This document shows positions 5,684 through 13,892 of a DNA stretch of 24,000 nt, in pieces. The stretch comes from Candidatus Woesebacteria bacterium (lineage in GTDB: Bacteria; Patescibacteriota; Microgenomatia; UBA8517): the NCBI GenBank assembly GCA_016432525.1, contig CP066693.1, positions 689,773-713,772 of the forward strand, in the 5' to 3' direction. Numbering within the stretch: the stretch's first letter is position 1; each line of letters opens with the position of its first letter. The notes beneath the pieces were generated by a model. It worked only from the letters and a program-made list of their open reading frames with translations. It had not been told where the DNA came from and did not search any database. Position numbers and translations under genes: made by a program.

Positions 5684-5687
5684 CTTG

Positions 5688-5759
5688 AGCGGCGGACCGG
5701 GTTTGAACCGGCGACCTCTTCCTTGGCAAGGAAGCATTCTACCACTGAACTACCGCCGC
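5688..5759 (-). tRNA. tRNA-Gly (anticodon GCC)
   Basis: Acceptor GCGGCGG/CCGCCGC, anticodon loop TT-GCC-AA, T-arm GCCGG-TTCAAAC-CCGGT. Confidence 0.9.
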
Positions 5760-5764
5760 TTAAG

Positions 5765-5837
5765 TGCTGAGACTGTGAGTCGAACACAGATCTGACGCTC
5801 TTCAGGCGCCCGCCGTGACCACCTTGGCTATCTCAGC
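5765..5837 (-). tRNA. tRNA-Phe (anticodon GAA)
   Basis: Acceptor GCTGAGA/TCTCAGC, anticodon loop CT-GAA-GA, T-arm CTGTG-TTCGACT-CACAG. Confidence 0.9.
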
Positions 5838-5846
5838 ATGAGTCTT

Positions 5847-5876
5847 TAAAACCGAGACAAACTTGTTTATCTCGGC
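5847..5876 (-). terminator. terminator-like hairpin (ccgaga N12 tctcgg + TTTT) upstream of tRNA-Phe
   Basis: On the minus strand a 6-bp stem is followed by TTTT, ending 10 nt before the tRNA-Phe 5' end. It lies downstream of a TGGTATAAT box (5926..5934). Confidence 0.3.
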
Positions 5877-5940
5877 AAAATTCTGACTTTGGCAAGACGA
5901 GCTATGCTCATCTTGGCTCAATGCAATTATACCAAACTTG

Positions 5941-6012
5941 TGGACGCTGAGGGATTCGAACCCCCGACTTTTTCGATGTAAACGAAACACTCTACCGCTG
6001 AGTTAAGCGTCC
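5941..6012 (-). tRNA. tRNA-Val (anticodon UAC)
   Basis: Acceptor GGACGCT/AGCGTCC, anticodon loop TT-TAC-AT, T-arm with TTCGAAT loop. Confidence 0.9.
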
Positions 6013-6050
6013 AAAGCGACGCTTGGCTCCCTTCGGGTAGTAAGCGTCCT

Positions 6051-6148
6051 CTGTGCTCTACATATTATACCATTCGAACTTACTTTCAGTCTCAATGCGG
6101 AGTGGCGGCTTGAACGCCACCAAGCCGCCACGTTATTTCTACCACTCG
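6051..6148 (+). repeat. left junction: core + arm Y (98 bp), perfect inverted copy at 11749..11846
   Basis: 98/98 identity to the reverse complement of 11749..11846, checked base by base. Contains a minus-strand TGGTATAAT box (6064..6072) and an 11-bp-stem hairpin (6102..6131). Confidence 0.95.
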
Positions 6149-6510
6149 GCGCTCATCGCCTCGTGGGTAAGATTCTCTTTTGCGCGCGTACAGTCGCTTT
6201 GCGACTGATTTATAAATTTACCCCTTACAAGGAAAGTGCGGGGTTGCCTAAAGCAACTGCCTTGCAGAACAAGCGGCAAAGAAATGCCTCAAAGTTTTGC
6301 TTCGCAAAAGTACCAAGCTAACGCAAGGCACAGAAGTTCCCCGCCAGTTTGGCGGGGAAGAGGCTAAGTTCCTGCTTCCAGCAGGAAGCCGCTTTCATCC
6401 GCCTTCGGCGGTTGCGCTCCTGCGAGGAAATTGACTACGCAATTTAGTGCGGCTCGCGCCGCACTCAAACAGAACCACACCGTAAAACTAAACCCGTGCA
6501 GATGCCGTGC
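6149..6510. other. ORF-free GC-rich region with at least 7 perfect short stem-loops (candidate structured RNA or protein-binding/origin region)
   Basis: Hairpins at 6191..6207, 6243..6257, 6295..6309, 6337..6359 (9 bp), 6369..6387, 6399..6411 and 6446..6465 (8 bp). No ORF of 60 aa or more on any frame. Strand undetermined. Confidence 0.4.
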
Positions 6511-6512
6511 TT

Positions 6513-6541
6513 TTGCCTCAAGTTAATGATATAAATATATA
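6513..6541 (+). promoter_or_regulatory. candidate sigma70-type promoter TTGCCT-N17-TATATA for the Fic-ART operon
   Basis: Hexamers and spacing read directly. Located 38 nt upstream of the 47-aa ORF. Confidence 0.35.
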
Positions 6542-6578
6542 TGAACCTAATTGTTCGGTAACTCTTATTTAATTAACC

Positions 6579-6722
6579 ATGCACGATATCCCTGAAAAAC
6601 AAGCAAAGAAAGATTTAGAATTGATGCTCCAAAATTTAAAAATTACTGAAGAGAAGATGCAAAGGTCGCTGCCTACAAACAAAGAGCAAAAGAAACGACC
6701 GATTATCCCAAAAACAAACTAA
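6579..6722 (+). CDS. possible 47-aa basic/charged ORF immediately upstream of the Fic-ART gene
   Basis: ATG..TAA with the stop 3 nt before the Fic-ART ATG (possible coupling). No SD. Lacks the FicA antitoxin motif (S/T)xxxE(G/N). Confidence 0.3.
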   Translation: MHDIPEKQAKKDLELMLQNLKITEEKMQRSLPTNKEQKKRPIIPKTN

Positions 6723-6725
6723 ACC

Positions 6726-9137
6726 ATGGAAGACAACATCGCAGGATCCGAGACACTTACAGCAGAGCGAATTTTGAACGATGAAGAAACAGAAAACAGG
6801 CGTACGCTCTTAACAATTATTTCCTCTCAAAGAGAAGCTATTACCTCCCGCCTTTCATCTTTTCAAGAACGAGTGGTACTATCCTTAAATGATGAAAAGG
6901 CTTTAAGACACGAGTGCCGAGAATTAGAGCAACAACTTGGGATTGAGACAGAGGAACAACGCATACTTGAAGCAAGTCTGTTTATAGACATGCCCTTTTT
7001 GGAAGTATCTGCTTTGAGGAAAGACAAACACCCAGAAGAGCTGTTTGGGATTGAAGCGTGGAAGGGCTGGTTGTCTGCCAGAATTACGGCACGACAAATG
7101 GACGAGCTTTCAGTTGAGGGAATTGTTGAGCTACATACAAAATTAGCAGAAGGGATGGATATTACGGGCGGACAACTTAGAAGTAAAAGTGCAATTGGAG
7201 CAGATTACACAAATACTGGTTCTCCTATTACTTTTACAAAGAGCCAAGCCACAGCAACTGAACAAAATCCACTTTTAGGCGTTCGCTATACCGATGAAGA
7301 AAAAAAAGAGGGTTTTATTGTATATCCCACAATTGATGACCCGAAAAGTTTTGAGAAGGTGATGAGTCAATTAACCTCACTTCAGCGAACAGGTTTACGG
7401 TATGGCGCAACAAATGAAAAACTTGTAAATGTGCTACTTCAAAGCACTATTGAGTGGCACAAGGAACAAAACAATAATTTAGCGGAGGGAGATTCAAATG
7501 CCCAAACTGAACTTGCCGCAGAGCTACAACGAAGAATAGTTTCCATACACGCATTTGATGATGGCAACGGCAGATTATCAAGGCTTCTTATGATTAGAGA
7601 GCTTGAAAAACACAATGAACCACCAACCATTTTAAGGCGTGGAGAAGATGATTTATTTTTTACTCCACAAGAATGGGTGCAGGAAGTGCGAGAAGGGCAA
7701 TCAAGGTACGAACAAATGCAAGAACGAATGACAGGTTCTCGGTACGCAAAAGCCGAGGACTTTTTAGTTGGCTTACAAAAACAAGCATATTTTGACACTG
7801 TGTACCAATCTGTTTATCCACCTCCCACTTCTGATGCACCCATGAGGCACACTGAATATCGAGCTTATCTAGAGCAACTTAACGAAATATATTCGCACTT
7901 TGCAGAATACACAGAAGGGAAAACTTGGTTACGTTGGAATAACACACAAGAAATACACATGGGAGGGCTTGTTTCTCCTGATTATTCTCGAGTATGGTGC
8001 GATACTCGACCAGAAGTGCAACAGAGGTCAAGAGAACGATATTTTGACCAAGAACTCAAAGTTTTTCGAGGTGGAGCTTGTGAAGGAATAACTGACACAA
8101 AACAACTTTTATCTGTTTTTACAGAGCCAACCGGTTTCTGCGCAGGTTACCACGCTCTTTTGGAAGAAGGAGTTTCTCCAATTAGTCTTAATTCGTTACC
8201 AATTGAGCGAATACAAAGTGAACTTAACGCGTACAATACAACAGTTCTTCGTGATACTGAGGTTAACCAAGGAGAGACTCTTGTTTCAGATGAGGTTTTA
8301 AATCAAGCAATGATAAGGGAGAGTCAGGATCAGCAAATTGCGAGAAGACTGAAATTCACATCAGAAGATGAAGAAAGAAGAGCTAGTGAATTTGCAAGTG
8401 GGGGACATATGCTTTACTTATTAAAAGTGCATACAGAGGGAAAAGCTCCTGGGTTGTGGCTTTCACCTGGAGTGAGCACCTCAATAGATGAAACCGAAGC
8501 TAGAAAATTCCTTACTACTCTAAAAGACGCCGGAGCTGAAAAACGAGTTGCATTGTTTATCTCAAGTAAATTGCCCAAACAAGGTATTTTTTACTCTCCA
8601 TCTAATCGGAGTCTGCCAATTACACGAGATTTTTACCCCAATATACCGTATCAAACAATAGTTGATGAGCAAGAAGTTGTGATAATGGGTGGAATTGACA
8701 GAAGTAGCTTACAAGCAATCGCCCATCGAAATGAAAATAATCATATAGTTTTAGTTGATTTTTCTACCAAAGAAAAAAGTATTTATAGATTTAATAAAAA
8801 AGGTGAATTAAGACTCCTTAAAAATAGAGCTTTAACAGAAGATGAGATTTCTGTTTTGAAAAAGACAAACAGACAATTGGGATCAGATAGCTATGATAAC
8901 AACAATAATTACGAAGATGAGGAGAACGAACCAAGTACGACTTATGACGATGAGCCGATTGACGATAATGAAGCGGAAGAGAAATTCCTACCGGCTTATT
9001 TGTCGGCCTCAACATTAGCAAAACTACATGACTCGCACTTATTTGATGAGGATGATGATGAAGACGAAAGTGTTTATTTAGGCTCTAGTACTCTTGCTAA
9101 TCTGAAGCAGAATCTGCAAATTGTTAATAAAGAATGA
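6726..9137 (+). CDS. two-domain Fic (AMPylase-type Fido) + R-S-E ADP-ribosyltransferase protein with acidic repeat tail (803 aa)
   Basis: Fic motif HAFDDGNGRLSR at codons 275-286 (7548..7583). Candidate auto-inhibitory TKLAEG at codons 138-143. ART triad: VFRGG (R448, 8067), GVSTSIDETEARKF (S584-T-S, 8475), DEQEVVIMGG (E648-x-E650, 8667), plus a KLPKQGIFYS strand resembling VIP2/C3-type toxins. Confidence 0.75.
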   Translation: MEDNIAGSETLTAERILNDEETENRRTLLTIISSQREAITSRLSSFQERVVLSLNDEKALRHECRELEQQLGIETEEQRILEASLFIDMPFLEVSALRKDKHPEELFGIEAWKGWLSARITARQMDELSVEGIVELHTKLAEGMDITGGQLRSKSAIGADYTNTGSPITFTKSQATATEQNPLLGVRYTDEEKKEGFIVYPTIDDPKSFEKVMSQLTSLQRTGLRYGATNEKLVNVLLQSTIEWHKEQNNNLAEGDSNAQTELAAELQRRIVSIHAFDDGNGRLSRLLMIRELEKHNEPPTILRRGEDDLFFTPQEWVQEVREGQSRYEQMQERMTGSRYAKAEDFLVGLQKQAYFDTVYQSVYPPPTSDAPMRHTEYRAYLEQLNEIYSHFAEYTEGKTWLRWNNTQEIHMGGLVSPDYSRVWCDTRPEVQQRSRERYFDQELKVFRGGACEGITDTKQLLSVFTEPTGFCAGYHALLEEGVSPISLNSLPIERIQSELNAYNTTVLRDTEVNQGETLVSDEVLNQAMIRESQDQQIARRLKFTSEDEERRASEFASGGHMLYLLKVHTEGKAPGLWLSPGVSTSIDETEARKFLTTLKDAGAEKRVALFISSKLPKQGIFYSPSNRSLPITRDFYPNIPYQTIVDEQEVVIMGGIDRSSLQAIAHRNENNHIVLVDFSTKEKSIYRFNKKGELRLLKNRALTEDEISVLKKTNRQLGSDSYDNNNNYEDEENEPSTTYDDEPIDDNEAEEKFLPAYLSASTLAKLHDSHLFDEDDDEDESVYLGSSTLANLKQNLQIVNKE

Positions 9138-9155
9138 AATTTTTTAGTAAAATAA

Positions 9156-9202
9156 AACCCTCTGTTTGTGTCGATATAAAATCGTTCACTACTAAGAGGG
9201 TT
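9156..9202 (-). terminator. hairpin (aaccctct / agagggtt, 31-nt loop) between the convergent Fic-ART and 64-aa genes
   Basis: 8-bp stem. On the minus strand it is followed by the T-rich ttattttact. The loop is long, so this is weak as an intrinsic terminator. Confidence 0.3.
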
Positions 9203-9208
9203 ACGTCC

Positions 9209-9403
9209 TTAAGGAAGTGGTTTGGCTAGACCTTCGTGCTCTCGACGCATTGCCAAATTGTATTCTGCTTGCTCTTCGTGGGTGAGCTGTTCACTACGTT
9301 CTCGCTTCCCGCGAGTAAATCGAACAAAAATATCATGGTGGGTTTGACGGGTTTTTCTGACGAACTCAAGCCACTCTTCAGCAGTCTCCGGCTCTGTATT
9401 CAT
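9209..9403 (-). CDS. hypothetical small charged protein (64 aa); candidate regulator or recombination directionality factor (speculative)
   Basis: Good SD (aaggag, 8-nt spacing). Minus-strand TGATATACT box at 9441..9449. No domain recognised. Confidence 0.55.
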   Translation of the reverse strand: MNTEPETAEEWLEFVRKTRQTHHDIFVRFTRGKRERSEQLTHEEQAEYNLAMRREHEGLAKPLP

Positions 9404-9620
9404 GATAGTAACTCCTTGTTAGTGTTGGACGACTAAAAGAAGTATATCAAATTGAGGCAATAAACAAGTTTGTTTTTACGAAATAAAAATCCCCCCAGTG
9501 ATATTTGATTGTCCGTAGACGTACAAACCCTTGGAGGGATATAGAAGACAAGAGCAAGTGTGATACCGAGAAAGGCATCAATGTAAAACTGATTAACTCA
9601 GCTCACACTTGCAAAAAGAC

Positions 9621-10664
9621 CTAGTCGTCGTTCTCGTCAAACAGATGAGCATCGCGCAGCTTCTTCAGCGTGCTGGCTCCGAGGAGTGACTCGTCATCGT
9701 CTTCTTCCTTGAAAAGAAGCTCTCCCAGCTTACGCATAGGCGTGTAGCCATCAGGCTGCAAGTCCTCTGGTGAGAGGGCATACCAAGCACTTTCTTTCCC
9801 GTCAGAACGGAACGTCTTGTGCTCAGTGCCGAGACCAAAGGCTTTGTAAATCGCGGCCTTAATTGACTCAGGCAGGTTGACGTTGGAACGCCAATTCTTT
9901 TTTGCCCAAGCGAGAGCCTGCTCAGCCGTCCAGACGACGTCTTCTTCGTTCAGCCCACGATTGTAAATCGGGGTTGGACTTTGCATTCCTGCTGCACGTT
10001 CCCACGTAAAACGGGCGCCACCAGCATGGAAGCAAAAGCTAATGTTGAGACTCGTAGGAACTGAACCTTCTGCCCGATACCGCAGATTGCTGGCAATGAT
10101 TGCCGCACTCTCAGGCGAACGAGCAAAGTTATGCCCAGAGTATTCGTCCGTGCATAAAGCAGACCCGCGCGGGAAACTGTGCCAACGCTTGGCGTAGGCA
10201 ATAATCTCCACATGGGGATGCTGTTCCGCAATGCGAGTACCGATAGCCGCGAGCCAGTTCATGAACTCATGGTTCATGTCTGTACCCTCAACAACGACAC
10301 TAACAATGCGCCACTGGTCCCAATCTGTAAGGGACGCAAAAAACTCAACCACTTCGGCTGGTGTAAGCTTGACGTTTGTACTCATTTTGATTCTCACTTT
10401 CATGGATAGTCCCTTATCCAGAGCTTTCAGCTCAGGAACGGGAATCTTCAGGATAAAGCCACCATAGACCACCTCCAAAACTGCGAGGTGATTATCCCAA
10501 TCGTGGGGACGATTAGGTGCAAACTGCACTTGTACCTGATTAAGGTACTCACGCAAGATTTGCAAAATGGTGTCGTTCAGCTCACCAAAGTTCTTGGTAA
10601 GCCTTGCTGCCTGCTGAAGAATTTCAGCATTTTTTAGCAGCTGCCCCAAACTTTTCTTAGCCAT
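9621..10664 (-). CDS. hypothetical protein (347 aa) ending in the ESLLGASTLKKLRDAHLFDENDD motif
   Basis: Start chosen at ATG 10664, preceded by GGAGG (cagggaggaaataaaATG). The 94-codon upstream extension in the track has no signal. About 53% GC in spot counts. No domain recognised. Confidence 0.7.
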   Translation of the reverse strand: MAKKSLGQLLKNAEILQQAARLTKNFGELNDTILQILREYLNQVQVQFAPNRPHDWDNHLAVLEVVYGGFILKIPVPELKALDKGLSMKVRIKMSTNVKLTPAEVVEFFASLTDWDQWRIVSVVVEGTDMNHEFMNWLAAIGTRIAEQHPHVEIIAYAKRWHSFPRGSALCTDEYSGHNFARSPESAAIIASNLRYRAEGSVPTSLNISFCFHAGGARFTWERAAGMQSPTPIYNRGLNEEDVVWTAEQALAWAKKNWRSNVNLPESIKAAIYKAFGLGTEHKTFRSDGKESAWYALSPEDLQPDGYTPMRKLGELLFKEEDDDESLLGASTLKKLRDAHLFDENDD

Positions 10665-10897
10665 TTTATTTCCTCCCTGAGGTATAAGGCTAAAGTTGAA
10701 CGATTCAACACAAAACCCTGTTCTGTGTGAGCCACTCCATAGTGACTTTTTGCGCACCAAAACTGATGCCCAAAGTGCCACCATGGAATAAATGAGAATT
10801 TCTAGGTCTTTATTTTGAATGTGCAAATTTATACTTTCGTCTTGCCAAAAGCTAACTTTCGGAAGACTCATCAGTCCAGCTAAGCTGGAGAGTACGT

Positions 10898-10964
10898 GCA
10901 GGTGGAGTTGAGTTGAAAGGCAATGATGAAATCGTGATGATTTCAAAACTCAACTCGCACCTGC
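10898..10964 (-). other. long imperfect hairpin (17-bp arms, one bulge) 7 nt downstream of the 167-aa gene stop
   Basis: gcaggtggagttgagtt (10898..10914) pairs with aactcaactcgcacctgc (10947..10964). No U-tract, so function as a terminator is unproven. Confidence 0.3.
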
Positions 10965-10971
10965 GAAACGC

Positions 10972-11475
10972 CTATCGGTAGAGGTCAATCGGATACCGTT
11001 TGTAAAAAATCGGTGTACCGATTTTCCAGCCACCGATGTTGAAACCGGCCTCAGCCAATCTCGCTAAGGCTTCTCCCAGCAGAGACTTGTTGTCCCCGCT
11101 GATGACCATTTTAAACCCTTTGTTCCCGTATTCTTCATACGAGAGGGTTAGGTCATTCGAGACCGCCTCAACGATTGAGGTGATCTCGTTCCAGTTAGCC
11201 ATTCTGCGGCTAAGGCCTTCGTGAACCAGTCCTGGATTTTCAGCGCTCAGCGCTTCAAACCCTTTCAAGGTTAGGCCGTAAAACCAGCCAGCGCCGACTA
11301 CAGCAAATCCTTGGTCGACAAGCACGGTGGCTTGTTGCACCTTCTCAGGTGGCCACCAAGCAGGCAACGGCTTGTTTGCATCATGCAGACGATTGAGCAT
11401 ATTGCTCGACGCCTGAAACGCAACCGCCGTACCTGTGGTGCGGCCCAACAATTCTAACCCAAATTTGTTAGCCAT
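10972..11475 (-). CDS. hypothetical protein (167 aa)
   Basis: Strong SD (taaggaggattaaaATG). GC-rich codon usage like the 347-aa neighbour. No domain recognised. Confidence 0.7.
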   Translation of the reverse strand: MANKFGLELLGRTTGTAVAFQASSNMLNRLHDANKPLPAWWPPEKVQQATVLVDQGFAVVGAGWFYGLTLKGFEALSAENPGLVHEGLSRRMANWNEITSIVEAVSNDLTLSYEEYGNKGFKMVISGDNKSLLGEALARLAEAGFNIGGWKIGTPIFYKRYPIDLYR

Positions 11476-11632
11476 TTTAATCCTCCTTAAGGACTCAGGG
11501 CTGGCAGCCCGCTGATGGTCATTCTAAATGAATGCCAGTTTAGCCTCAAACTCTAATTAAAGCTAAATTAGCATCCACTAGCTTTATTAGGTCTTTGTTT
11601 AAATGTGCAGATAGAAGGTAATTTATGGTGCT

Positions 11633-11661
11633 ATAGTAGCATGAATGAAGCTAAAAGTCAA
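11633..11661 (-). promoter_or_regulatory. sigma70-type promoter TTGACT-N17-TACTAT for the 167-aa gene, leaving a ~150-nt leader
   Basis: Hexamers and 17-nt spacer read directly on the minus strand. Confidence 0.5.
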
Positions 11662-11748
11662 GAACTATAGGGAATATGACGAATAATTTTTGCTTTTTTC
11701 TTTTTAGGGAACGAGCCAACTTTTTTGACCCACTTCAGCGCTTCGCGT

Positions 11749-11934
11749 CGAGTGGTAGAAATAACGTGGCGGCTTGGTGGCGTTCAAGCCGCCACTCCGC
11801 ATTGAGACTGAAAGTAAGTTCGAATGGTATAATATGTAGAGCACAGCAAGGGAGCCGAGGGCTCATCGCAGGCTGCGATTGGCCGCGCAGCCAGCGAAAT
11901 ATGTGGATTGTTTGGGGAAAAGTGGATACGTTTA
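11749..11934 (-). repeat. internal inverted copy of the predicted excision junction (arm X + core + arm Y), 186 bp
   Basis: 11749..11846 is the exact reverse complement of 6051..6148 (98/98). 11841..11934 is the exact reverse complement of 13427..13520 (94/94). The two share the core gcacag at 11841..11846. Confidence 0.95.
11825..11833 (+). promoter_or_regulatory. TGGTATAAT extended -10 box within the inverted Y arm, oriented toward the recombinase gene
   Basis: Same box as 6064..6072 (there on the minus strand, facing tRNA-Val). Matches the host tRNA promoter style TATAATATG. Confidence 0.45.
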
Positions 11935-11996
11935 GGATAAGGATAGAAAAAAGAAAATCGCAAAAATTATATGTTTCAGAAATGTTATTCTGAAAC

Positions 11997-13661
11997 ATGA
12001 GCAAAACTTCAGTTGCTTCTGTAATAAAGCCTAAATACCTCGGTTATTGTCGCAAGTCCACAGACGAGAAAGAAAAACAGATTTTGTCTATAGATCAGCA
12101 GATTGATGAGTTAAAAACTTTCGCTTCAAGGGAAAATCTAGAAATAGTAGAGTTCTTTGTTGAAAAAAAGACTGCTAAAGAACCTGGTCGCTCAGTTTTT
12201 AACAATCTGCTGAAATTGGTAGAAAAAGGATTGGCAGATGGAATTGTTGCATGGCACCCTGATCGATTAGCCCGAAACAGTGTGGATGGTGGAAAGATTA
12301 TCTACCTTTTGGATACAGGCCAACTTCAAGATTTGAAGTTCCCAACTTTCTGGTTTCAAAACACACCTCAAGGCAAGTTCATGCTAAACATCGCGTTTGG
12401 CCAGAGCAAATATTATGTAGATAATCTTTCAGAAAATGTAAAGCGTGGATTGCATTTCAAAGCCAGACGTGGAGAGTGGCCTTCCTTTGCCCCCTTCGGC
12501 TATAAAAATGACCGTAATACAAGAAATATTGTTGTCGTGCCACAGCAAACAGAACTTGTTAAATATGTATTTACTCATTTCGCCTCAGGGGAACTATCTT
12601 CAACACGAGATGTCAGAAGTTACCTTTTTAAGAAGGGTGTAAAGCGAAAAAATGGAAGGCCACTTCACTACAATCAAATTCGTGCAATTCTTACTCGCAG
12701 TTTATATTACGGTGTCTTTATATATGGTGGTGAAACTTACGAAAGTAAACTTCCACCTTTAATATCCCAAGAGCTGTTTGACAAGGTTCAGGTGCGTCTA
12801 AAGAGACTTCAGCCAACTAATCTCAAAAAGCACGAATTTAATTTCACAGGGCTTATGAAATGCATAGAATGTGGAAGTTTTATTACGGCTGAGAGTCACA
12901 CCAAGCATTACAAATGTGCAAAACGAACCGCAGTTTATATTTATTATCGTTGTGTGAAGAAAAAAGGTGTTTGCTCTCAGCCTTATGTAACAGAAGCTGA
13001 AGTTGAAACTCAGTTGAGAGAAATTGTGAAAAAGTGCTCGCTTTCACCAATATGGGAAAAAGGTTTTATGGAGCTTCTTCTAAAAGATGAATTGGAAGCA
13101 AGAGCTCGCACTTCAGTTGAGCTTTGCTCAATCACAACTTCTCTTGAAGCAGTTGAAAAGAAACTTAGCCGTCTGTTAGAACTATACCTTGAAGAAAGTA
13201 TTGAAGCTGAGGATTATCAGTTAAAGAAAAATCAACTGCTTCACAAGAAACTTGATTTAAAATCCCAGATTGAGAGGGTAAAAGCTGACGGAGTAAGTTG
13301 GCTCGAACCTTTGAGGAACTTTATTATTGAGTCCGCAAATGCGGACAAAATCGCGCGCGCAAAAGAGAATCGCAGTGATTTGGCAATCACTGCCAAAAAA
13401 GTCGGCTCGAACTACTTGCTATTTGATAAACGTATCCACTTTTCCCCAAACAATCCACATATTTCGCTGGCTGCGCGGCCAATCGCAGCCTGCGATGAGC
13501 CCTCGGCTCCCTTGCTGTGCGGGAGACAGGACTTGAACCTGCACGGATTTCTCCATACGCACCTCAAGCGTACGTGTATACCAGTTTCACCACTCCCGCA
13601 AATCTCAAAGTGCCGAAGGAGAGATTTGAACTCTCACGCTCAAAAGAGCACACGCTCCTGA
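11997..13661 (+). CDS. large serine recombinase (integrase)
   Basis: N-terminal resolvase domain (YCRKS21TDEK, HPDRLARN), recombinase domain, zinc-ribbon cysteines (CIECGS...YYRCVKKKGVC) and a coiled-coil region. The last 47 codon positions (46 sense codons plus stop) read through the right junction into antisense tRNA-Leu genes. Confidence 0.9.
   Translation: MSKTSVASVIKPKYLGYCRKSTDEKEKQILSIDQQIDELKTFASRENLEIVEFFVEKKTAKEPGRSVFNNLLKLVEKGLADGIVAWHPDRLARNSVDGGKIIYLLDTGQLQDLKFPTFWFQNTPQGKFMLNIAFGQSKYYVDNLSENVKRGLHFKARRGEWPSFAPFGYKNDRNTRNIVVVPQQTELVKYVFTHFASGELSSTRDVRSYLFKKGVKRKNGRPLHYNQIRAILTRSLYYGVFIYGGETYESKLPPLISQELFDKVQVRLKRLQPTNLKKHEFNFTGLMKCIECGSFITAESHTKHYKCAKRTAVYIYYRCVKKKGVCSQPYVTEAEVETQLREIVKKCSLSPIWEKGFMELLLKDELEARARTSVELCSITTSLEAVEKKLSRLLELYLEESIEAEDYQLKKNQLLHKKLDLKSQIERVKADGVSWLEPLRNFIIESANADKIARAKENRSDLAITAKKVGSNYLLFDKRIHFSPNNPHISLAARPIAACDEPSAPLLCGRQDLNLHGFLHTHLKRTCIPVSPLPQISKCRRRDLNSHAQKSTRS
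13427..13520 (+). repeat. right junction: arm X + core (94 bp), perfect inverted copy at 11841..11934
   Basis: 94/94 identity, checked base by base. Overlaps recombinase codons 478-508. Confidence 0.95.
13518..13599 (-). tRNA. tRNA-Leu (anticodon GAG), type II; integration target
   Basis: Acceptor GCGGGAG/CTCCCGC, anticodon loop TT-GAG-GT, T-arm CAGG-TTCAAGT-CCTG, 82 nt. Confidence 0.9.
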
Positions 13662-13693
13662 AGCGTGCCTGTCTACCATTTCAGCACTTCGGC
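13611..13693 (-). tRNA. tRNA-Leu (anticodon CAG), type II
   Basis: Acceptor GCCGAAG/CTTCGGC, anticodon loop TT-CAG-GA. Minus-strand TATAAT box at 13703..13708 upstream. Confidence 0.9.
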
Positions 13694-13756
13694 TTGAAGC
13701 ATATTATAGCAAAAACTAGAATCAAAGCTAGATAATTGCTAAAATACATCAGTTAT

Positions 13757-13829
13757 GACCCAGTAGCTCAACGGATAGAGCAATTCCCTTCTAAGGAAGA
13801 GGTTGTGCGTTCGATTCGCACCTGGGTCA
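13757..13829 (+). tRNA. tRNA-Arg (anticodon UCU)
   Basis: Acceptor GACCCAG/CTGGGTC, anticodon loop CT-TCT-AA, T-arm GTGCG-TTCGATT-CGCAC. Confidence 0.9.
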
Positions 13830-13892
13830 CAAAAAACTAGGGGTCGGCAATTCTTCGAAGAAACTTCAAAGATGCTTTCCCCTAGTAAGGGC

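What the first reader, a model, noticed from the sequence alone, without database searches (positions are those of the whole stretch)
6051..13520. 7.47 kb serine-recombinase island splitting a tRNA array at the 3' end of tRNA-Leu(GAG)
Seen: the left junction reads Z-CTGTGC-Y (6013..6148) and the right junction reads X-CTGTGC-tRNA (13427..13599). The core overlaps the last two acceptor-stem bases, the discriminator and 3 nt downstream of tRNA-Leu(GAG). Deleting 6057..13520 gives, on the minus strand, tRNA-Leu(CAG), tRNA-Leu(GAG), a 38-nt hairpin spacer and tRNA-Val. That is a compact array like the others in this window.

The island carries a large serine recombinase at one end and five or six cargo ORFs. 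None of the cargo looks like phage structural or conjugation genes.

Spot GC counts of single 60-nt lines: host ~32%, recombinase ~38%, Fic-ART ~40%, minus-strand cargo ~53%. The element therefore looks mosaic. A short 6-bp shared core fits serine-recombinase chemistry (inference).
Basis: partly seen in the sequence, partly recalled or inferred. Interest (0 to 1): 0.65.

Follow-up and report, generated by a model that had tools for sequence, protein, structure and literature searches.

The report
Serine-recombinase island in a tRNA array
A 7.5-kb mobile island carrying a large serine recombinase sits at the 3' end of a tRNA-Leu gene. It belongs to a very large family, for which I found no published description, that targets tRNA genes in general and always keeps a spare, inverted copy of its own attachment site in front of the recombinase gene.

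Summary
CTGTGC occurs at 6051-6056 and 13515-13520. The right copy covers the last two acceptor bases, the discriminator and 3 nt downstream of tRNA-Leu(GAG). Deleting 6057-13520 restores a Leu(CAG)-Leu(GAG)-Val-Phe-Gly array.

The 6-mer alone means nothing. The boundaries are fixed by a third site the finding does not mention. This is a complete inverted X-core-Y copy at 11738-11934, called attPi here. Its arms match the left end (102 nt, 99%) and the right end (94 nt, 100%).

The 554-aa ORF is a large serine recombinase whose last ~31 codons are the X arm. It reads through the junction into antisense tRNA.

Syntenic relatives have Leu(GAG) and Val adjacent. Across 105 informative homologous loci, 98 share the inverted X' copy. 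In 78 of those 98, X ends at the 3' end of a convergent tRNA (33 tRNA species). Of 71 loci with enough upstream sequence, 38 show the full attL-cargo-attPi-rec-attR layout.

A TCGAAC-like motif lies 4-5 bp farther from the crossover on the element side than on the tRNA side, the published attP/attB signature.

Near-identical recombinases sit in different tRNAs, so the family is mobile. The role of attPi is unresolved; self-regulation is favoured. The "ART" label is unsupported. No exact empty site was found.

The parts
5940..6012 (-). tRNA-Val(TAC). It is the host gene left of the island, downstream in the tRNA array.
   Evidence: ARAGORN; Rfam 69.9 bits.
6013..6050 (.). Z, the host-side (attB-type) left arm of attL. 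It is a 38-nt hairpin spacer whose right end (6041-6049) repeats the first 9 nt of tRNA-Val.
   Evidence: Sequence reading; fold z = -3.3.
6051..6056 (+). Left copy of the core CTGTGC (attL crossover region).
6057..6159 (+). Y arm, the element-side (attP-type) right half-site of attL. It contains ATTCGAAC 17-23 nt from the core and an 11-bp hairpin at 6102-6131.
   Evidence: 99% identical over 6051-6152 to the reverse complement of 11745-11846 (109 nt at 96% over 6051-6159). The hairpin is terminator-like, has z = -4.3, and 7 of its 9 pairs covary across the family.
6171..6188 (+). a', an 18-nt perfect antisense copy of recombinase coding sequence 13354-13371.
   Evidence: Each of the related elements L006 and L010 carries its own matching a/a' pair, 89% and 100% complementary.
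6190..6500 (+). GC-rich, hairpin-rich non-coding stretch with UUCG-type loops on the + strand. It may be a structured RNA.
   Evidence: GC 0.52 in the 6001-6500 window. Fold of 6165-6520: z = -4.3. Partly homologous to L006 and L092, with 14 of 55 predicted pairs compensated. No Rfam match.
6579..6722 (+). 47-aa ORF of uncertain status.
   Evidence: no family match.
6726..9137 (+). 803-aa cargo protein with a Fic domain (HAFDDGNGRLSR). Its C-terminal half is an orphan.
   Evidence: Pfam Fic E = 1.6e-08; FICD-like PDB hits; no support for an ART domain.
9209..9403 (-). 64-aa ORF of unknown function.
   Evidence: no matches.
9621..10946 (-). Cargo ORF of 441 aa from a TTG start. The likely true start is about 10664, giving 347 aa. 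GC is 51%. It shares a C-terminal motif with the Fic protein.
   Evidence: No family match at E <= 0.01; at E <= 10 only one weak Pfam hit, Polyketide_cyc2, E = 0.046, 14.5 bits, below the curated cut-off of 27.4.
10829..10897 (-). Sub-threshold hammerhead type III-like motif between two cargo genes.
   Evidence: RF00008, 28.6 bits against a gathering score of 48.5; E = 0.007 and 4.5e-4. The core CUGAUGA, GAAA and CUC are present.
10972..11475 (-). 167-aa cargo ORF of unknown function, GC 52%.
   Evidence: no family match.
11683..11727 (+). IRL (11683-11705), the left member of the inverted pair that brackets attPi, and b' (11712-11727), an antisense copy of recombinase coding sequence 13394-13409.
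   Evidence: I3, I21. The same features occur in L006, L009 and L010. The motif is conserved family-wide.
11738..11934 (-). attPi, a complete inverted attP-type site: X arm (11934 down to 11847), core (11846 down to 11841) and Y arm (11840 down to 11738).
   Evidence: The X' arm is present in 98 of 105 informative family loci and the full three-site layout in 38 of 71.
11948..11999 (+). IRR motif AAAAAGAAAATCGCAAAAATT (11948-11970) and a 12-bp hairpin that buries the recombinase ATG. A promoter-like site on the minus strand (11994..11966) points into attPi.
   Evidence: hairpin z = -5.2.
11997..13661 (+). Large serine recombinase ORF. It is 554 aa as integrated. 508 codons lie before the end of the core and the tail is encoded by antisense tRNA. 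In the X-core-Y form the ORF would be 526 aa.
   Evidence: Pfam PF00239, PF07508 and PF13408; PHROG integrase E = 2.4e-75; SPbeta integrase in PDB E = 1.5e-10; ORF listings.
13354..13409 (+). a (13354-13371), a conserved hairpin (13372-13393) and b (13394-13409), all inside the recombinase coding region.
13427..13514 (+). X arm, the element-side (attP-type) left half-site of attR. It also encodes the last ~31 residues of the recombinase.
   Evidence: 13427-13520 is 100% identical to the reverse complement of 11841-11934.
13515..13520 (+). Right copy of the core CTGTGC (attR crossover region). The crossover is most likely at GC, 13519-13520.
   Evidence: Relatives with only 2-nt cores place the crossover at the last two acceptor bases.
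13517..13599 (-). tRNA-Leu(GAG), intact. It is the attB-type right half-site.
   Evidence: ARAGORN; Rfam 52.5 bits.
13610..13693 (-). tRNA-Leu(CAG), the upstream member of the split array.

Best explanation
Window 6057-13520 is an integrated mobile island. A large serine recombinase (LSR), encoded at its right end, placed it between tRNA-Leu(GAG) and tRNA-Val.

How the insertion happened. Recombination joined an element site X-core-Y (attP) to a host site Z-core-tRNA (attB). It most likely crossed over at the GC that forms the last two acceptor-stem bases. The tRNA therefore stays intact. The junctions left behind are attL (Z|Y, at 6051) and attR (X|tRNA, at 13515).

What the recombinase reads. 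On the host side it reads generic tRNA features: the ...GC-A 3' end and the T-arm GGACTTGAACC. This is why family members occupy at least 33 different tRNA species.

The ORF crosses the site. The X arm is also the last ~31 codons of the recombinase gene. The protein's C-terminus therefore changes between the integrated form (554 aa) and the X-core-Y form (526 aa, followed by a hairpin in Y).

The internal copy. The island belongs to a very large family found mainly in candidate-phyla-radiation (Microgenomates-type) bacteria. Its standard layout is attL - variable cargo (0.56-8.7 kb) - internal inverted attP copy (attPi) - recombinase - attR.

Inferred role of attPi (about 35-40% confidence). 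attPi is chiefly a cis-regulatory module for the recombinase gene. It would act as an operator that the recombinase itself binds. It may also carry convergent promoter and antisense elements. Only rarely would it recombine with a second tRNA gene, producing chromosomal inversions.

Cargo. Here the cargo is a Fic-domain protein and orphan genes of foreign GC content.
For: Shown for this window:
- Junction anatomy and exact arm duplications.
- LSR domains and the YCRKST catalytic motif.
- In-silico deletion restores the tRNA array.
- GC differs from the host.
- The occupied junctions recur in Logan contigs from two further samples of the same study: attL in SRR12113414 and attR in SRR12113415. 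Both contigs break inside the repeats.

Shown by comparison with relatives:
- Syntenic relatives L005/L006/L007 and L010/L094 have Leu(GAG) and Val 1-4 nt apart. Their own homologous elements sit at tRNA-Arg(TCG) and tRNA-Arg(TCT).
- Related elements occupy the same tRNA-Leu(GAG) 3' end with different or unsequenced cargo. L046 (63% recombinase identity, 973-nt cargo) also has tRNA-Val(TAC) immediately left of its attL. In L092 (71%) the contig starts inside Y, so its left neighbour and cargo are unknown.

Family survey:
- 98 of 105 informative loci have the inverted X' copy (median 90 nt; 79 are at least 97% identical).
- In 78 of those 98, X ends within 12 nt of the 3' end of a convergent tRNA (33 tRNA species).
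- 38 of 71 loci with enough upstream sequence have the full three-site layout, including a chromosome-level assembly (L018).
- Arm overlaps are 1-9 nt. Two-nucleotide cores fall at the last two acceptor bases.

Site geometry. A TCGAAC-like motif lies 4-5 nt farther from the crossover in Y than on the tRNA side in 36 of 37 elements. This matches the 5-bp ZD-motif shift between attP and attB reported for serine integrases (PMC3783163).

Mobility. Recombinases 99.6% identical sit in tRNA-Tyr and tRNA-Ser; others 94.5% identical sit in Arg(TCG) and Leu(CAG).

For the regulatory reading of attPi:
- It always lies directly upstream of rec, in one orientation.
- It is bracketed by a conserved inverted motif.
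- A promoter-like site on the minus strand points into it, and the Y hairpin scores as terminator-like.
- A hairpin covers the ATG, and the Y hairpin covaries.

For occasional recombination of attPi: L072 has tRNA-Glu genes joined to X on both sides of rec.
Against: - No empty site or free circle was found for this species. The exact-pattern scans of GTDB genomes and JGI metagenomes gave nothing. The relatives that lack the island are distant: the neighbouring GTPase is 55-58% identical.
- No directionality factor was identified, so excision competence is unknown.
- The left (host-side) half-site Z shows no clear recombinase motif.
- Nothing tests the regulatory role of attPi directly. The promoter and terminator calls are consensus matches at about the density expected by chance across the region.
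- The extended -10 seen in Y' of this element is not conserved across the family.
- Arm identity over ~100 nt exceeds what protein binding needs and is not explained.
- Seven informative loci lack the inverted X' copy. Six of them have intact recombinases and one (L148) is a pseudogene. attPi is therefore not strictly required.
Confidence: 0.8

Rival explanations
1. The internal inverted attP is primarily a working second recombination site. Excised circles would then carry two attP sites. The integrated element would keep a live attP that recombines with other tRNA genes. This would allow cassette-exchange-type insertion of the recombinase module between two inverted tRNAs, and inversions that reshuffle tRNA arrays. 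Regulation would be secondary.
For: - L072 has rec flanked by X|tRNA-Glu junctions on both sides, with diverged arms, so an assembly switch is unlikely.
- L091 shows tRNA-Leu(TAA) joined to X' of the same recombinase as L006.
- The orientation of tRNA blocks differs among syntenic relatives.
- attPi is indistinguishable from the reconstructed end-joint over about 200 nt.
Against: - If both attP copies were used equally, about half of insertions would have rec reading away from the tRNA. Apart from L072 (a tRNA on both sides) and the ambiguous L091, none of the 98 loci with the inverted X' copy does.
- Cargo orientation relative to a' and IRL/b' is invariant in all 13 elements inspected.
- L091 can also be an assembly switch through the inverted repeat, because its left flank is only 75-78% identical to L006.
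- LSRs are not known to recombine attP with attL or attR (PMC3783163 abstract).
Confidence: 0.25
2. The three sites form a site-specific inversion switch of the Hin/Gin or shufflon kind. The recombinase would flip the cargo segment (between Y and Y') or its own gene (between X' and X) to switch expression.
For: Both segments are bounded by long, near-perfect inverted repeats that meet at recombinase cores. Many assemblies break exactly at X'.
Against: - Only one orientation of rec and of the cargo-end markers is seen in about 100 independent loci.
- The protein is a 500-aa integrase-type LSR, not a small invertase.
- The outer sites are hybrid element/host junctions at many different tRNAs.
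- Contig breaks are what any inverted repeat longer than the assembly k-mer produces.
Confidence: 0.05
3. The island is a fixed or decaying remnant in this lineage. It was once inserted by the recombinase but is now immobile, and the repeats are only historical.
For: No empty site or circle was found. No directionality factor was recognised. In the related element L006 the left Y arm has decayed, showing that such decay occurs.
Against: - The recombinase ORF is intact.
- The arms are 99-100% identical over 94-102 nt.
- Both half-sites retain the family motifs.
- Close family members have recently changed tRNA targets.
Confidence: 0.15
4. The layout is an assembly artefact caused by the inverted repeats, or a chimera of two organisms.
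For: Logan contigs of the same study break inside X and Y. At least one public contig (L091) may switch paths inside X.
Against: The same order of sites recurs in 38 independent assemblies made with different assemblers, including a chromosome-level record (L018, OZ246414.1). The host flanks on both sides of the window are syntenic with relatives.
Confidence: 0.02

Closest known systems
Phage and prophage-like large serine integrases (phiC31, Bxb1, A118/LI, SPbeta SprA)
   Same: - Same domain set: Resolvase, Recombinase and zinc ribbon.
- Hybrid attL and attR with only a few shared bases.
- The element-side half-site carries the distal motif 4-5 bp farther out than the host-side half-site, as described for LI integrase (PMC3783163).
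   Different: - At most 27.5% identity to phage integrases; E = 1.5e-10 to SPbeta integrase.
- No phage genes, and only one hit in 2.9 million viral contigs.
- The target is the 3' end of tRNA genes in general rather than one protein-coding gene.
- attP overlaps the integrase's own 3' coding end.
- A second, inverted attP sits upstream of the gene.
Tn4451/Tn4453 and Tn5397 (TnpX/TndX large-resolvase mobilisable transposons)
   Same: Small, non-viral, non-conjugative elements whose only mobility gene is an LSR at one end. From my own knowledge, in Tn4451 the circle joint forms a promoter for tnpX. This links the joined-end sequence to recombinase expression, much as a copy of the joint sits in front of rec here. 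According to the IME review, the recombinase of Tn4451 (which the review calls TndX) needs no directionality factor (PMC5704250).
   Different: - Those elements insert at GA-dinucleotide sites and within genes, not at tRNA 3' ends.
- I know of no permanent internal copy of the joint in them.
- Sequence relationship to TnpX/TndX was not tested here.
tRNA-targeting genomic islands and prophages with tyrosine integrases (P4-like)
   Same: Insertion at the 3' end of a tRNA gene that leaves the tRNA intact, with variable cargo. This is the typical behaviour stated for tyrosine-recombinase IMEs (PMC5704250).
   Different: The enzyme here is a serine recombinase. The shared core is 2-9 nt rather than a long duplicated tRNA 3' segment. 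The same review states that serine-recombinase IMEs typically integrate within genes.
Tn3/gamma-delta resolvase with its res site; Hin/Gin invertases
   Same: From my own knowledge, a serine recombinase binds a recombination site that overlaps its own promoter region and so represses itself (res). Recombination accessory sequences can also lie inside the recombinase coding region (the Hin enhancer). These are analogies for attPi and for the a and b elements.
   Different: Those are small serine recombinases acting on resolution or inversion sites. Here no inversion polymorphism is seen, and the site is a full attP-type integration site.

Membership tests
Large serine recombinase (serine integrase) integrative element | N-terminal resolvase catalytic domain with the nucleophile serine | tested here: met
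   PF00239 E = 2.5e-22 over residues 15-161. The motif YCRKSTDE is in the translation and is conserved in the alignment.
Large serine recombinase (serine integrase) integrative element | C-terminal Recombinase domain plus zinc ribbon domain | tested here: met
   PF07508 E = 6.8e-13 and PF13408 E = 4.2e-08; PHROG 95 integrase E = 2.4e-75.
Large serine recombinase (serine integrase) integrative element | Coiled-coil motif inserted in the zinc ribbon domain, which controls directionality | not tested
   No coiled-coil prediction or structure model was made for the recombinase.
Large serine recombinase (serine integrase) integrative element | Hybrid attL and attR sharing only a very short core around a 2-bp crossover | tested here: met
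   The core is 6 bp here. In 39 related elements the overlap is 1-9 nt, and 2-nt cases are GC or GG.
Large serine recombinase (serine integrase) integrative element | attP-type half-sites carry the distal (ZD) motif about 5 bp farther from the centre than attB-type half-sites | tested here: met
   The TCGAAC-like motif sits at +17/18 in Y and at +13 on the tRNA side. The difference is 4-5 nt in 36 of 37 elements. The rule is quoted from PMC3783163. It was met for the right half-sites only; the left half-sites are unclear.
Large serine recombinase (serine integrase) integrative element | Evidence of integration and excision: an empty site and/or a circular form | tested here: inconclusive
   No exact empty site in GTDB genomes or JGI metagenomes. 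Orthologous arrays are uninterrupted in distant relatives. Near-identical recombinases occupy different tRNAs. A circle joint cannot be told from attPi with short reads.
Temperate phage (prophage) | Virion structural, packaging or lysis genes | tested here: not met
   No structural or packaging PHROG category for any cargo ORF. The only cargo matches are three unknown-function PHROGs that overlap the Fic domain of the 803-aa protein. The family has one hit in 2.9 million viral contigs.
Integrative conjugative or mobilisable element (ICE/IME) | Relaxase, type IV secretion genes or oriT | tested here: not met
   No such Pfam or PHROG match in the island. An unrecognised oriT cannot be excluded.
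Serine invertase switch (Hin/Gin/shufflon-like) | Both orientations of the segment between inverted sites occur in populations or relatives | tested here: not met
   Only one orientation of rec (rec reading towards a tRNA) was seen among the 98 loci with the inverted X' copy. The sole oddity is L072, which has a tRNA on both sides. The cargo-end markers are invariant in the 13 elements inspected.
tRNA-targeting island with tyrosine integrase | Tyrosine recombinase (phage integrase fold) | tested here: not met
   No tyrosine recombinase domain is present. The only recombinase is of the serine type.
Fic/DOC AMP-transferase family (cargo, 6726-9137) | Fic motif HxFx(D/E)GNGRxxR | tested here: met
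   HAFDDGNGRLSR is in the translation. PF02661 E = 1.6e-08. FICD PDB hits reach 4.3e-05.
   FRG, STS and EQE strings are visible by eye. There is no Pfam hit even at E <= 10, no relevant PDB sequence hit and no homologue in the word-indexed protein search. The AlphaFold model is unusable (pLDDT 34).
Hammerhead ribozyme type III (10829-10897, minus strand) | Score at or above the Rfam gathering threshold, with the catalytic core | tested here: inconclusive
   28.6 bits against 48.5. The core CUGAUGA, GAAA and CUC are present and stem III has 4 bp.

The most novel reading that the evidence does not exclude
This would be the founding example of an undescribed class of serine-integrase elements, abundant in candidate-phyla-radiation bacteria. 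Three properties would define the class.

1. The elements read generic tRNA features (the acceptor end plus the T-arm) and can therefore enter almost any tRNA gene.
2. They encode their attP inside the integrase's own 3' end.
3. They carry a built-in second, inverted attP with two roles. It would be a self-binding control region for the integrase. It would also be a live site whose occasional recombination with other tRNA genes inverts and reshuffles tRNA arrays in these small genomes.
Probability: 0.3. Interest if true: 0.8.

Novelty: new variant of a known kind. Interest (0 to 1): 0.68.

Why it matters
- Target choice. Serine integrases are usually described as inserting within specific genes, while tRNA 3' ends are the domain of tyrosine integrases (PMC5704250). 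This family breaks that rule. It is present in at least 587 GTDB species representatives and occupies 33 tRNA species. It may be a main route of gene gain in candidate-phyla-radiation genomes, where few mobile elements are characterised.
- Possible tool use. An integrase that recognises a universal tRNA feature, and needs only a matching dinucleotide, could be useful for integration into organisms without pre-installed sites.
- A new design feature. The conserved internal attP copy, and the integrase ORF that crosses its own attachment site, are not covered by current models of integrase control. They give concrete, testable questions on autoregulation, antisense control and genome inversions.
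- Assembly quality. These repeats systematically break short-read assemblies of these genomes at tRNA genes.

Tried and rejected
1. Exact empty-site search. The pattern was tRNA-Val 5' end, N{20,50}, tRNA-Leu(GAG) 3' end. It gave 0 hits in genome contigs and in metagenome contigs.
2. Palindromic crossover. I considered that a palindromic dinucleotide (GC) might let sites recombine in either orientation. Rejected: the dinucleotide next to the crossover is GA, TG, AG, GG or AC in most relatives.
3. Inversion switch. Rejected because the orientation is invariant.
4. Folded single-stranded 'dumbbell' attP, by analogy with CTXphi. The two attP copies would pair perfectly in a single strand. However, there are no rolling-circle or ssDNA genes, and the a'/b' copies do not fit the geometry. 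No support.
5. A conserved outward promoter in Y'. TGGTATAAT lies 8-16 nt from the core in this element, but it is not conserved across the family. I do not rely on it.
6. ART domain in the 803-aa protein. Pfam, PDB, homologue search and AlphaFold all gave nothing.
7. Rfam. No family matches the GC-rich region or the pseudoknot-like motif of other members.
8. L091 as proof of an attPi-by-tRNA inversion. Left ambiguous, because its left flank is only 75-78% identical to L006 and the contig may switch paths within the inverted repeat.
9. Literature. Six searches found no description of this family or of an internal inverted attP.

Full report
**1. The observation**

ARAGORN and Rfam place tRNA-Val(TAC) at 5940-6012, tRNA-Leu(GAG) at 13517/13518-13599 and tRNA-Leu(CAG) at 13610-13693, all on the minus strand. 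CTGTGC is present at 6051-6056 and 13515-13520. At the right copy it covers the last two acceptor-stem bases, the discriminator and three trailer bases of tRNA-Leu(GAG).

Deleting 6057-13520 in silico yields Leu(CAG), Leu(GAG), a 41-nt gap, Val, Phe and Gly on the minus strand, and all are still called as tRNAs. The 38-nt spacer Z folds into a hairpin (z = -3.3).

Host flanks are 36-39%, the recombinase 40%, the Fic gene 39.7% and the minus-strand cargo 48-52%. The left non-coding stretch is 49% over 6057-6560 and 52% in the 6001-6500 window.

**2. What fixes the boundaries**

A 6-bp repeat is not significant by itself. The repeat search shows a third site that the finding does not mention. 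6051-6152 is 99% identical to the reverse complement of 11745-11846 (the Y arm). 13427-13520 is 100% identical to the reverse complement of 11841-11934 (the X arm). The two matches overlap on GCACAG at 11841-11846.

So 11738-11934 is a complete X-core-Y site in inverted orientation. I call it attPi. The island reads Z|Y - cargo - Y'|X' - recombinase - X|tRNA. The left junction is therefore half host and half element, and so is the right junction. The points where identity to attPi stops define the crossover region to within six bases.

**3. The recombinase**

ORF 11997-13661 (554 aa) carries the Resolvase, Recombinase and Zn_ribbon_recom domains. It contains the YCRKST catalytic motif. It matches PHROG integrases (E = 2.4e-75) and, distantly, the SPbeta integrase (E = 1.5e-10). 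Identity to phage integrases is at most 27.5%.

The ORF does not stop inside the element. The X arm encodes its last ~31 element-derived residues, and the frame then runs on through antisense tRNA-Leu(GAG) into antisense tRNA-Leu(CAG). In the X-core-Y configuration, as preserved at attPi, the frame would end after 18 more codons. It would end inside an 11-bp hairpin that scores as terminator-like in both copies of Y. Homologues P0004 and P0006 also end in antisense-tRNA-encoded tails.

**4. Is it an insertion?**

The exact empty site was not found in the GTDB representative genomes or in the JGI metagenomes. Logan contigs from two further samples of the same study carry the occupied junctions: attL in SRR12113414 and attR in SRR12113415. 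They break inside the repeats.

Syntenic relatives supply the comparison. They share CTP synthase, tRNA-Arg, a DRG-type GTPase, the tRNA array, a methyltransferase, DUF192 and DinB, and their GTPase is 55-58% identical.
- In L005/L006/L007, Leu(GAG) and Val are 1 nt apart. A 70%-identical recombinase sits at tRNA-Arg(TCG).
- In L010/L094, Leu(GAG) and Val are 4 nt apart. A 66%-identical recombinase sits at tRNA-Arg(TCT).

Two other metagenomic elements occupy the same tRNA-Leu(GAG) 3' end. L046 (63% identity) has only 973 nt of cargo and has tRNA-Val immediately to its left. L092 (71%) starts inside Y, so its left neighbour and cargo are not known.

**5. The family**

An alignment-based scan of GTDB species representatives found at least 587 loci, of which 80 were fetched. 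A metagenome scan added 61 more. After removing duplicates, 105 loci had enough flanking sequence. The results were:
- 98 carry an inverted copy of the recombinase 3' end upstream of the gene. The median length is 90 nt. 79 are at least 97% identical and 35 are 100% identical.
- In 78 of those 98, the X arm ends within 12 nt of the 3' end of a convergent tRNA. These represent 33 tRNA species.
- Of 71 loci with at least 1.5 kb upstream, 38 show the full three-site layout. Cargo ranges from 0.56 to 8.7 kb. One of these is a chromosome-level assembly (L018).
- Many contigs begin exactly at X'.
- The recombinase gene is never found reading away from a tRNA.
- The markers at the two ends of the cargo segment (a' next to the left Y; IRL and b' next to attPi) keep the same positions in all 13 elements inspected.

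Recombinases 99.6% identical sit in tRNA-Tyr (L106) and tRNA-Ser (L107/L141). Others 94.5% identical sit in Arg(TCG) and Leu(CAG). The family has therefore moved recently, and its target choice is relaxed. Only one relative occurs in 2.9 million viral contigs, and the cargo has no phage or conjugation genes.

**6. Site anatomy and mechanism**

Aligning attL, attPi and attR of 39 elements shows arm overlaps of 1-9 nt. Where the overlap is only 2 nt, it is the pair of bases that forms the end of the acceptor stem: GC in L033 and L049, GG in L060. Across the family the two bases before the boundary are GC (13), GA (7), TG (7), AG (4) and GG (3), among others. The crossover dinucleotide is therefore not generally palindromic, and attPi is truly inverted relative to attL and attR.

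On the tRNA side the T-arm supplies a TCGAAC-like motif, usually 13 nt from the boundary. On the Y side the same motif lies at 17-18 nt. The difference is 4-5 nt in 36 of 37 elements. Rutherford et al. report that the zinc-ribbon-domain motif of an LSR is shifted 5 bp toward the centre in attB relative to attP (PMC3783163). This independently labels Y as attP-type and the tRNA as attB-type.

The host-side left arm (Z) is not conserved. That fits recognition mainly through the tRNA half, and it explains the wide target range. These steps are inferred from sequence; no recombination was observed.

**7. What is attPi for?**

This is unresolved. The facts are as follows.
- attPi always lies upstream of rec, in one orientation: within about 150 nt of the recombinase match in most members and about 300-380 nt in the distant clade. 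It is almost identical to the element ends over about 100 nt per arm.
- It is bracketed by an inverted pair of a conserved motif, AAAAACGCAAAAATT (window 11683-11705 and 11948-11970).
- A promoter-like site on the minus strand (TTCAGA-17-TATAAT, 11994..11966) points into it, toward the Y hairpin.
- A 12-bp hairpin buries the recombinase start codon (z = -5.2).
- 7 of the 9 pairs of the Y hairpin show compensatory changes across 14 elements.
- Two short antisense copies of recombinase coding sequence flank the Y arms: a' (6171-6188) and b' (11712-11727). In each of the related elements inspected (L006, L010, and L009 for b), the copy matches that element's own recombinase sequence.

I favour a cis-regulatory role, at about 35-40% confidence. 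The recombinase would bind a copy of its own site placed over its control region, by analogy with resolvase and res. Convergent transcription or antisense pairing may add to this.

A second, non-exclusive role is occasional recombination with other tRNA genes. In L072 the recombinase gene is flanked on both sides by X|tRNA-Glu junctions. That is the product expected from attPi recombining with a second attB. The orientation of tRNA blocks also differs among the syntenic relatives.

An inversion switch is rejected because orientation is invariant. Seven informative loci lack the inverted copy, and six of them have intact recombinases.

**8. Cargo**

The 803-aa protein has a Fic domain with the motif HAFDDGNGRLSR. 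The 'ART' label rests only on FRG, STS and EQE strings. Pfam at E <= 10, PDB sequences, a homologue search and an AlphaFold model (pLDDT 34) gave no support.

The 347/441-aa and 167-aa minus-strand genes are orphans with 51-52% GC. The Fic protein and the 441-aa protein share a C-terminal motif, L(S/G)ASTLxKLxDxHLFDExDD (15 of 20 identities).

**9. Comparison with known systems and novelty**

The element works like a serine-integrase island and passes the tests that could be run for that family. It differs from described members in three ways:
- It targets the 3' ends of tRNA genes in general. The IME review assigns that habit to tyrosine recombinases and within-gene insertion to serine recombinases (PMC5704250).
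- Its attP overlaps the integrase's own coding end.
- It carries a conserved internal inverted attP.

Six literature searches found no description of this. I rate it a new variant of a known kind.

Noticed in passing
window 10829-10897 (-): Sub-threshold hammerhead type III match (28.6 bits against a gathering score of 48.5; E = 0.007 over 7.8 kb). CUGAUGA, GAAA and a CUC cleavage triplet are intact. It lies between two minus-strand cargo genes.
   Followed up: partly
window 6190-6500 (+); L006 3058-3330; L092 88-345: GC-rich stretch of stacked hairpins with UUCG-type loops next to the left Y arm. It folds better than shuffled sequence (z = -4.3 for 6165-6520). It is partly conserved in two related elements through a long-range helix AAGCGGC...GCCGCTT. 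No Rfam match. It may be a new structured RNA.
   Followed up: partly
L055, L047, L033, L038, L030, L036: about 120 nt left of their internal attP: A conserved pseudoknot-like motif preceded by a promoter-like site: GTACTCAGAAATAACCTTCGGG...ATGGCCGTC...CCCGAAAGGTTTCTGAGTAC...GGCGGCCAT. It has no Rfam match and is absent from the window's element.
   Followed up: no
window 9000-9059 and 9624-9683: The 803-aa Fic protein and the 441-aa orphan protein share an acidic C-terminal motif, L(S/G)ASTLxKLxDxHLFDExDD (15 of 20 identical). It is partly repeated twice in the Fic protein. It could be a shared targeting or partner-binding tag.
   Followed up: partly
window 6004-6050: The 38-nt spacer Z ends with a 9-nt copy (TAAGCGTCC, 6041-6049) of the 5' end of tRNA-Val (6004-6012). 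The ancestral Val-Leu junction, with a spacer of about 4 nt as in relatives, therefore seems preserved, and 29 nt lie between the repeats. The insert also contains GGCTCCCTT, which recurs at the end of the X arm (13505-13513). Origin unknown.
   Followed up: no
L072 9796-11582: The recombinase gene is flanked by X|tRNA junctions on both sides: tRNA-Glu(TTC) on the + strand upstream and tRNA-Glu(CTC) on the - strand downstream. This is the product expected if the internal attP recombined with a second tRNA gene.
   Followed up: partly
L005 7296-8544; L010 2086-2820 and 11488-12005; window 5687-13830: The same set of tRNA genes is arranged in different orientations in syntenic relatives. The whole Gly-Phe-Val-Leu-Leu block is flipped in L005. 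The Leu(CAG)/Arg(TCT) pair is flipped in L010.
   Followed up: no
L106, L107, L141, L111 (junctions): In a distant clade the attP carries a 7-nt copy of the target tRNA's 3' end: TCGGGCG for tRNA-Ser and CCGTGTC for tRNA-Tyr. L106 sits in tRNA-Tyr but still has the tRNA-Ser-type 7-mer in its internal attP. This hints at how target preference shifts.
   Followed up: partly
L137/L138 (contig Ga0210053_1001916): One 18.4-kb metagenome contig carries recombinase copies at both ends in inverted orientation. It may be an assembly palindrome or a real inverted pair.
   Followed up: no
proteins P0002, P0005, P0007, P0010: Relatives of 865-883 aa (47-49% identity) are much longer than the ~510-aa norm. 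This suggests a fused extra domain.
   Followed up: no
window 13372-13393 and the equivalent positions in L006 and L010: A 9-10-bp hairpin lies inside the recombinase coding region between elements a and b. It is kept by compensatory changes in three elements. The region also encodes invariant residues (VGSN), so the constraint may act on the nucleic acid.
   Followed up: no
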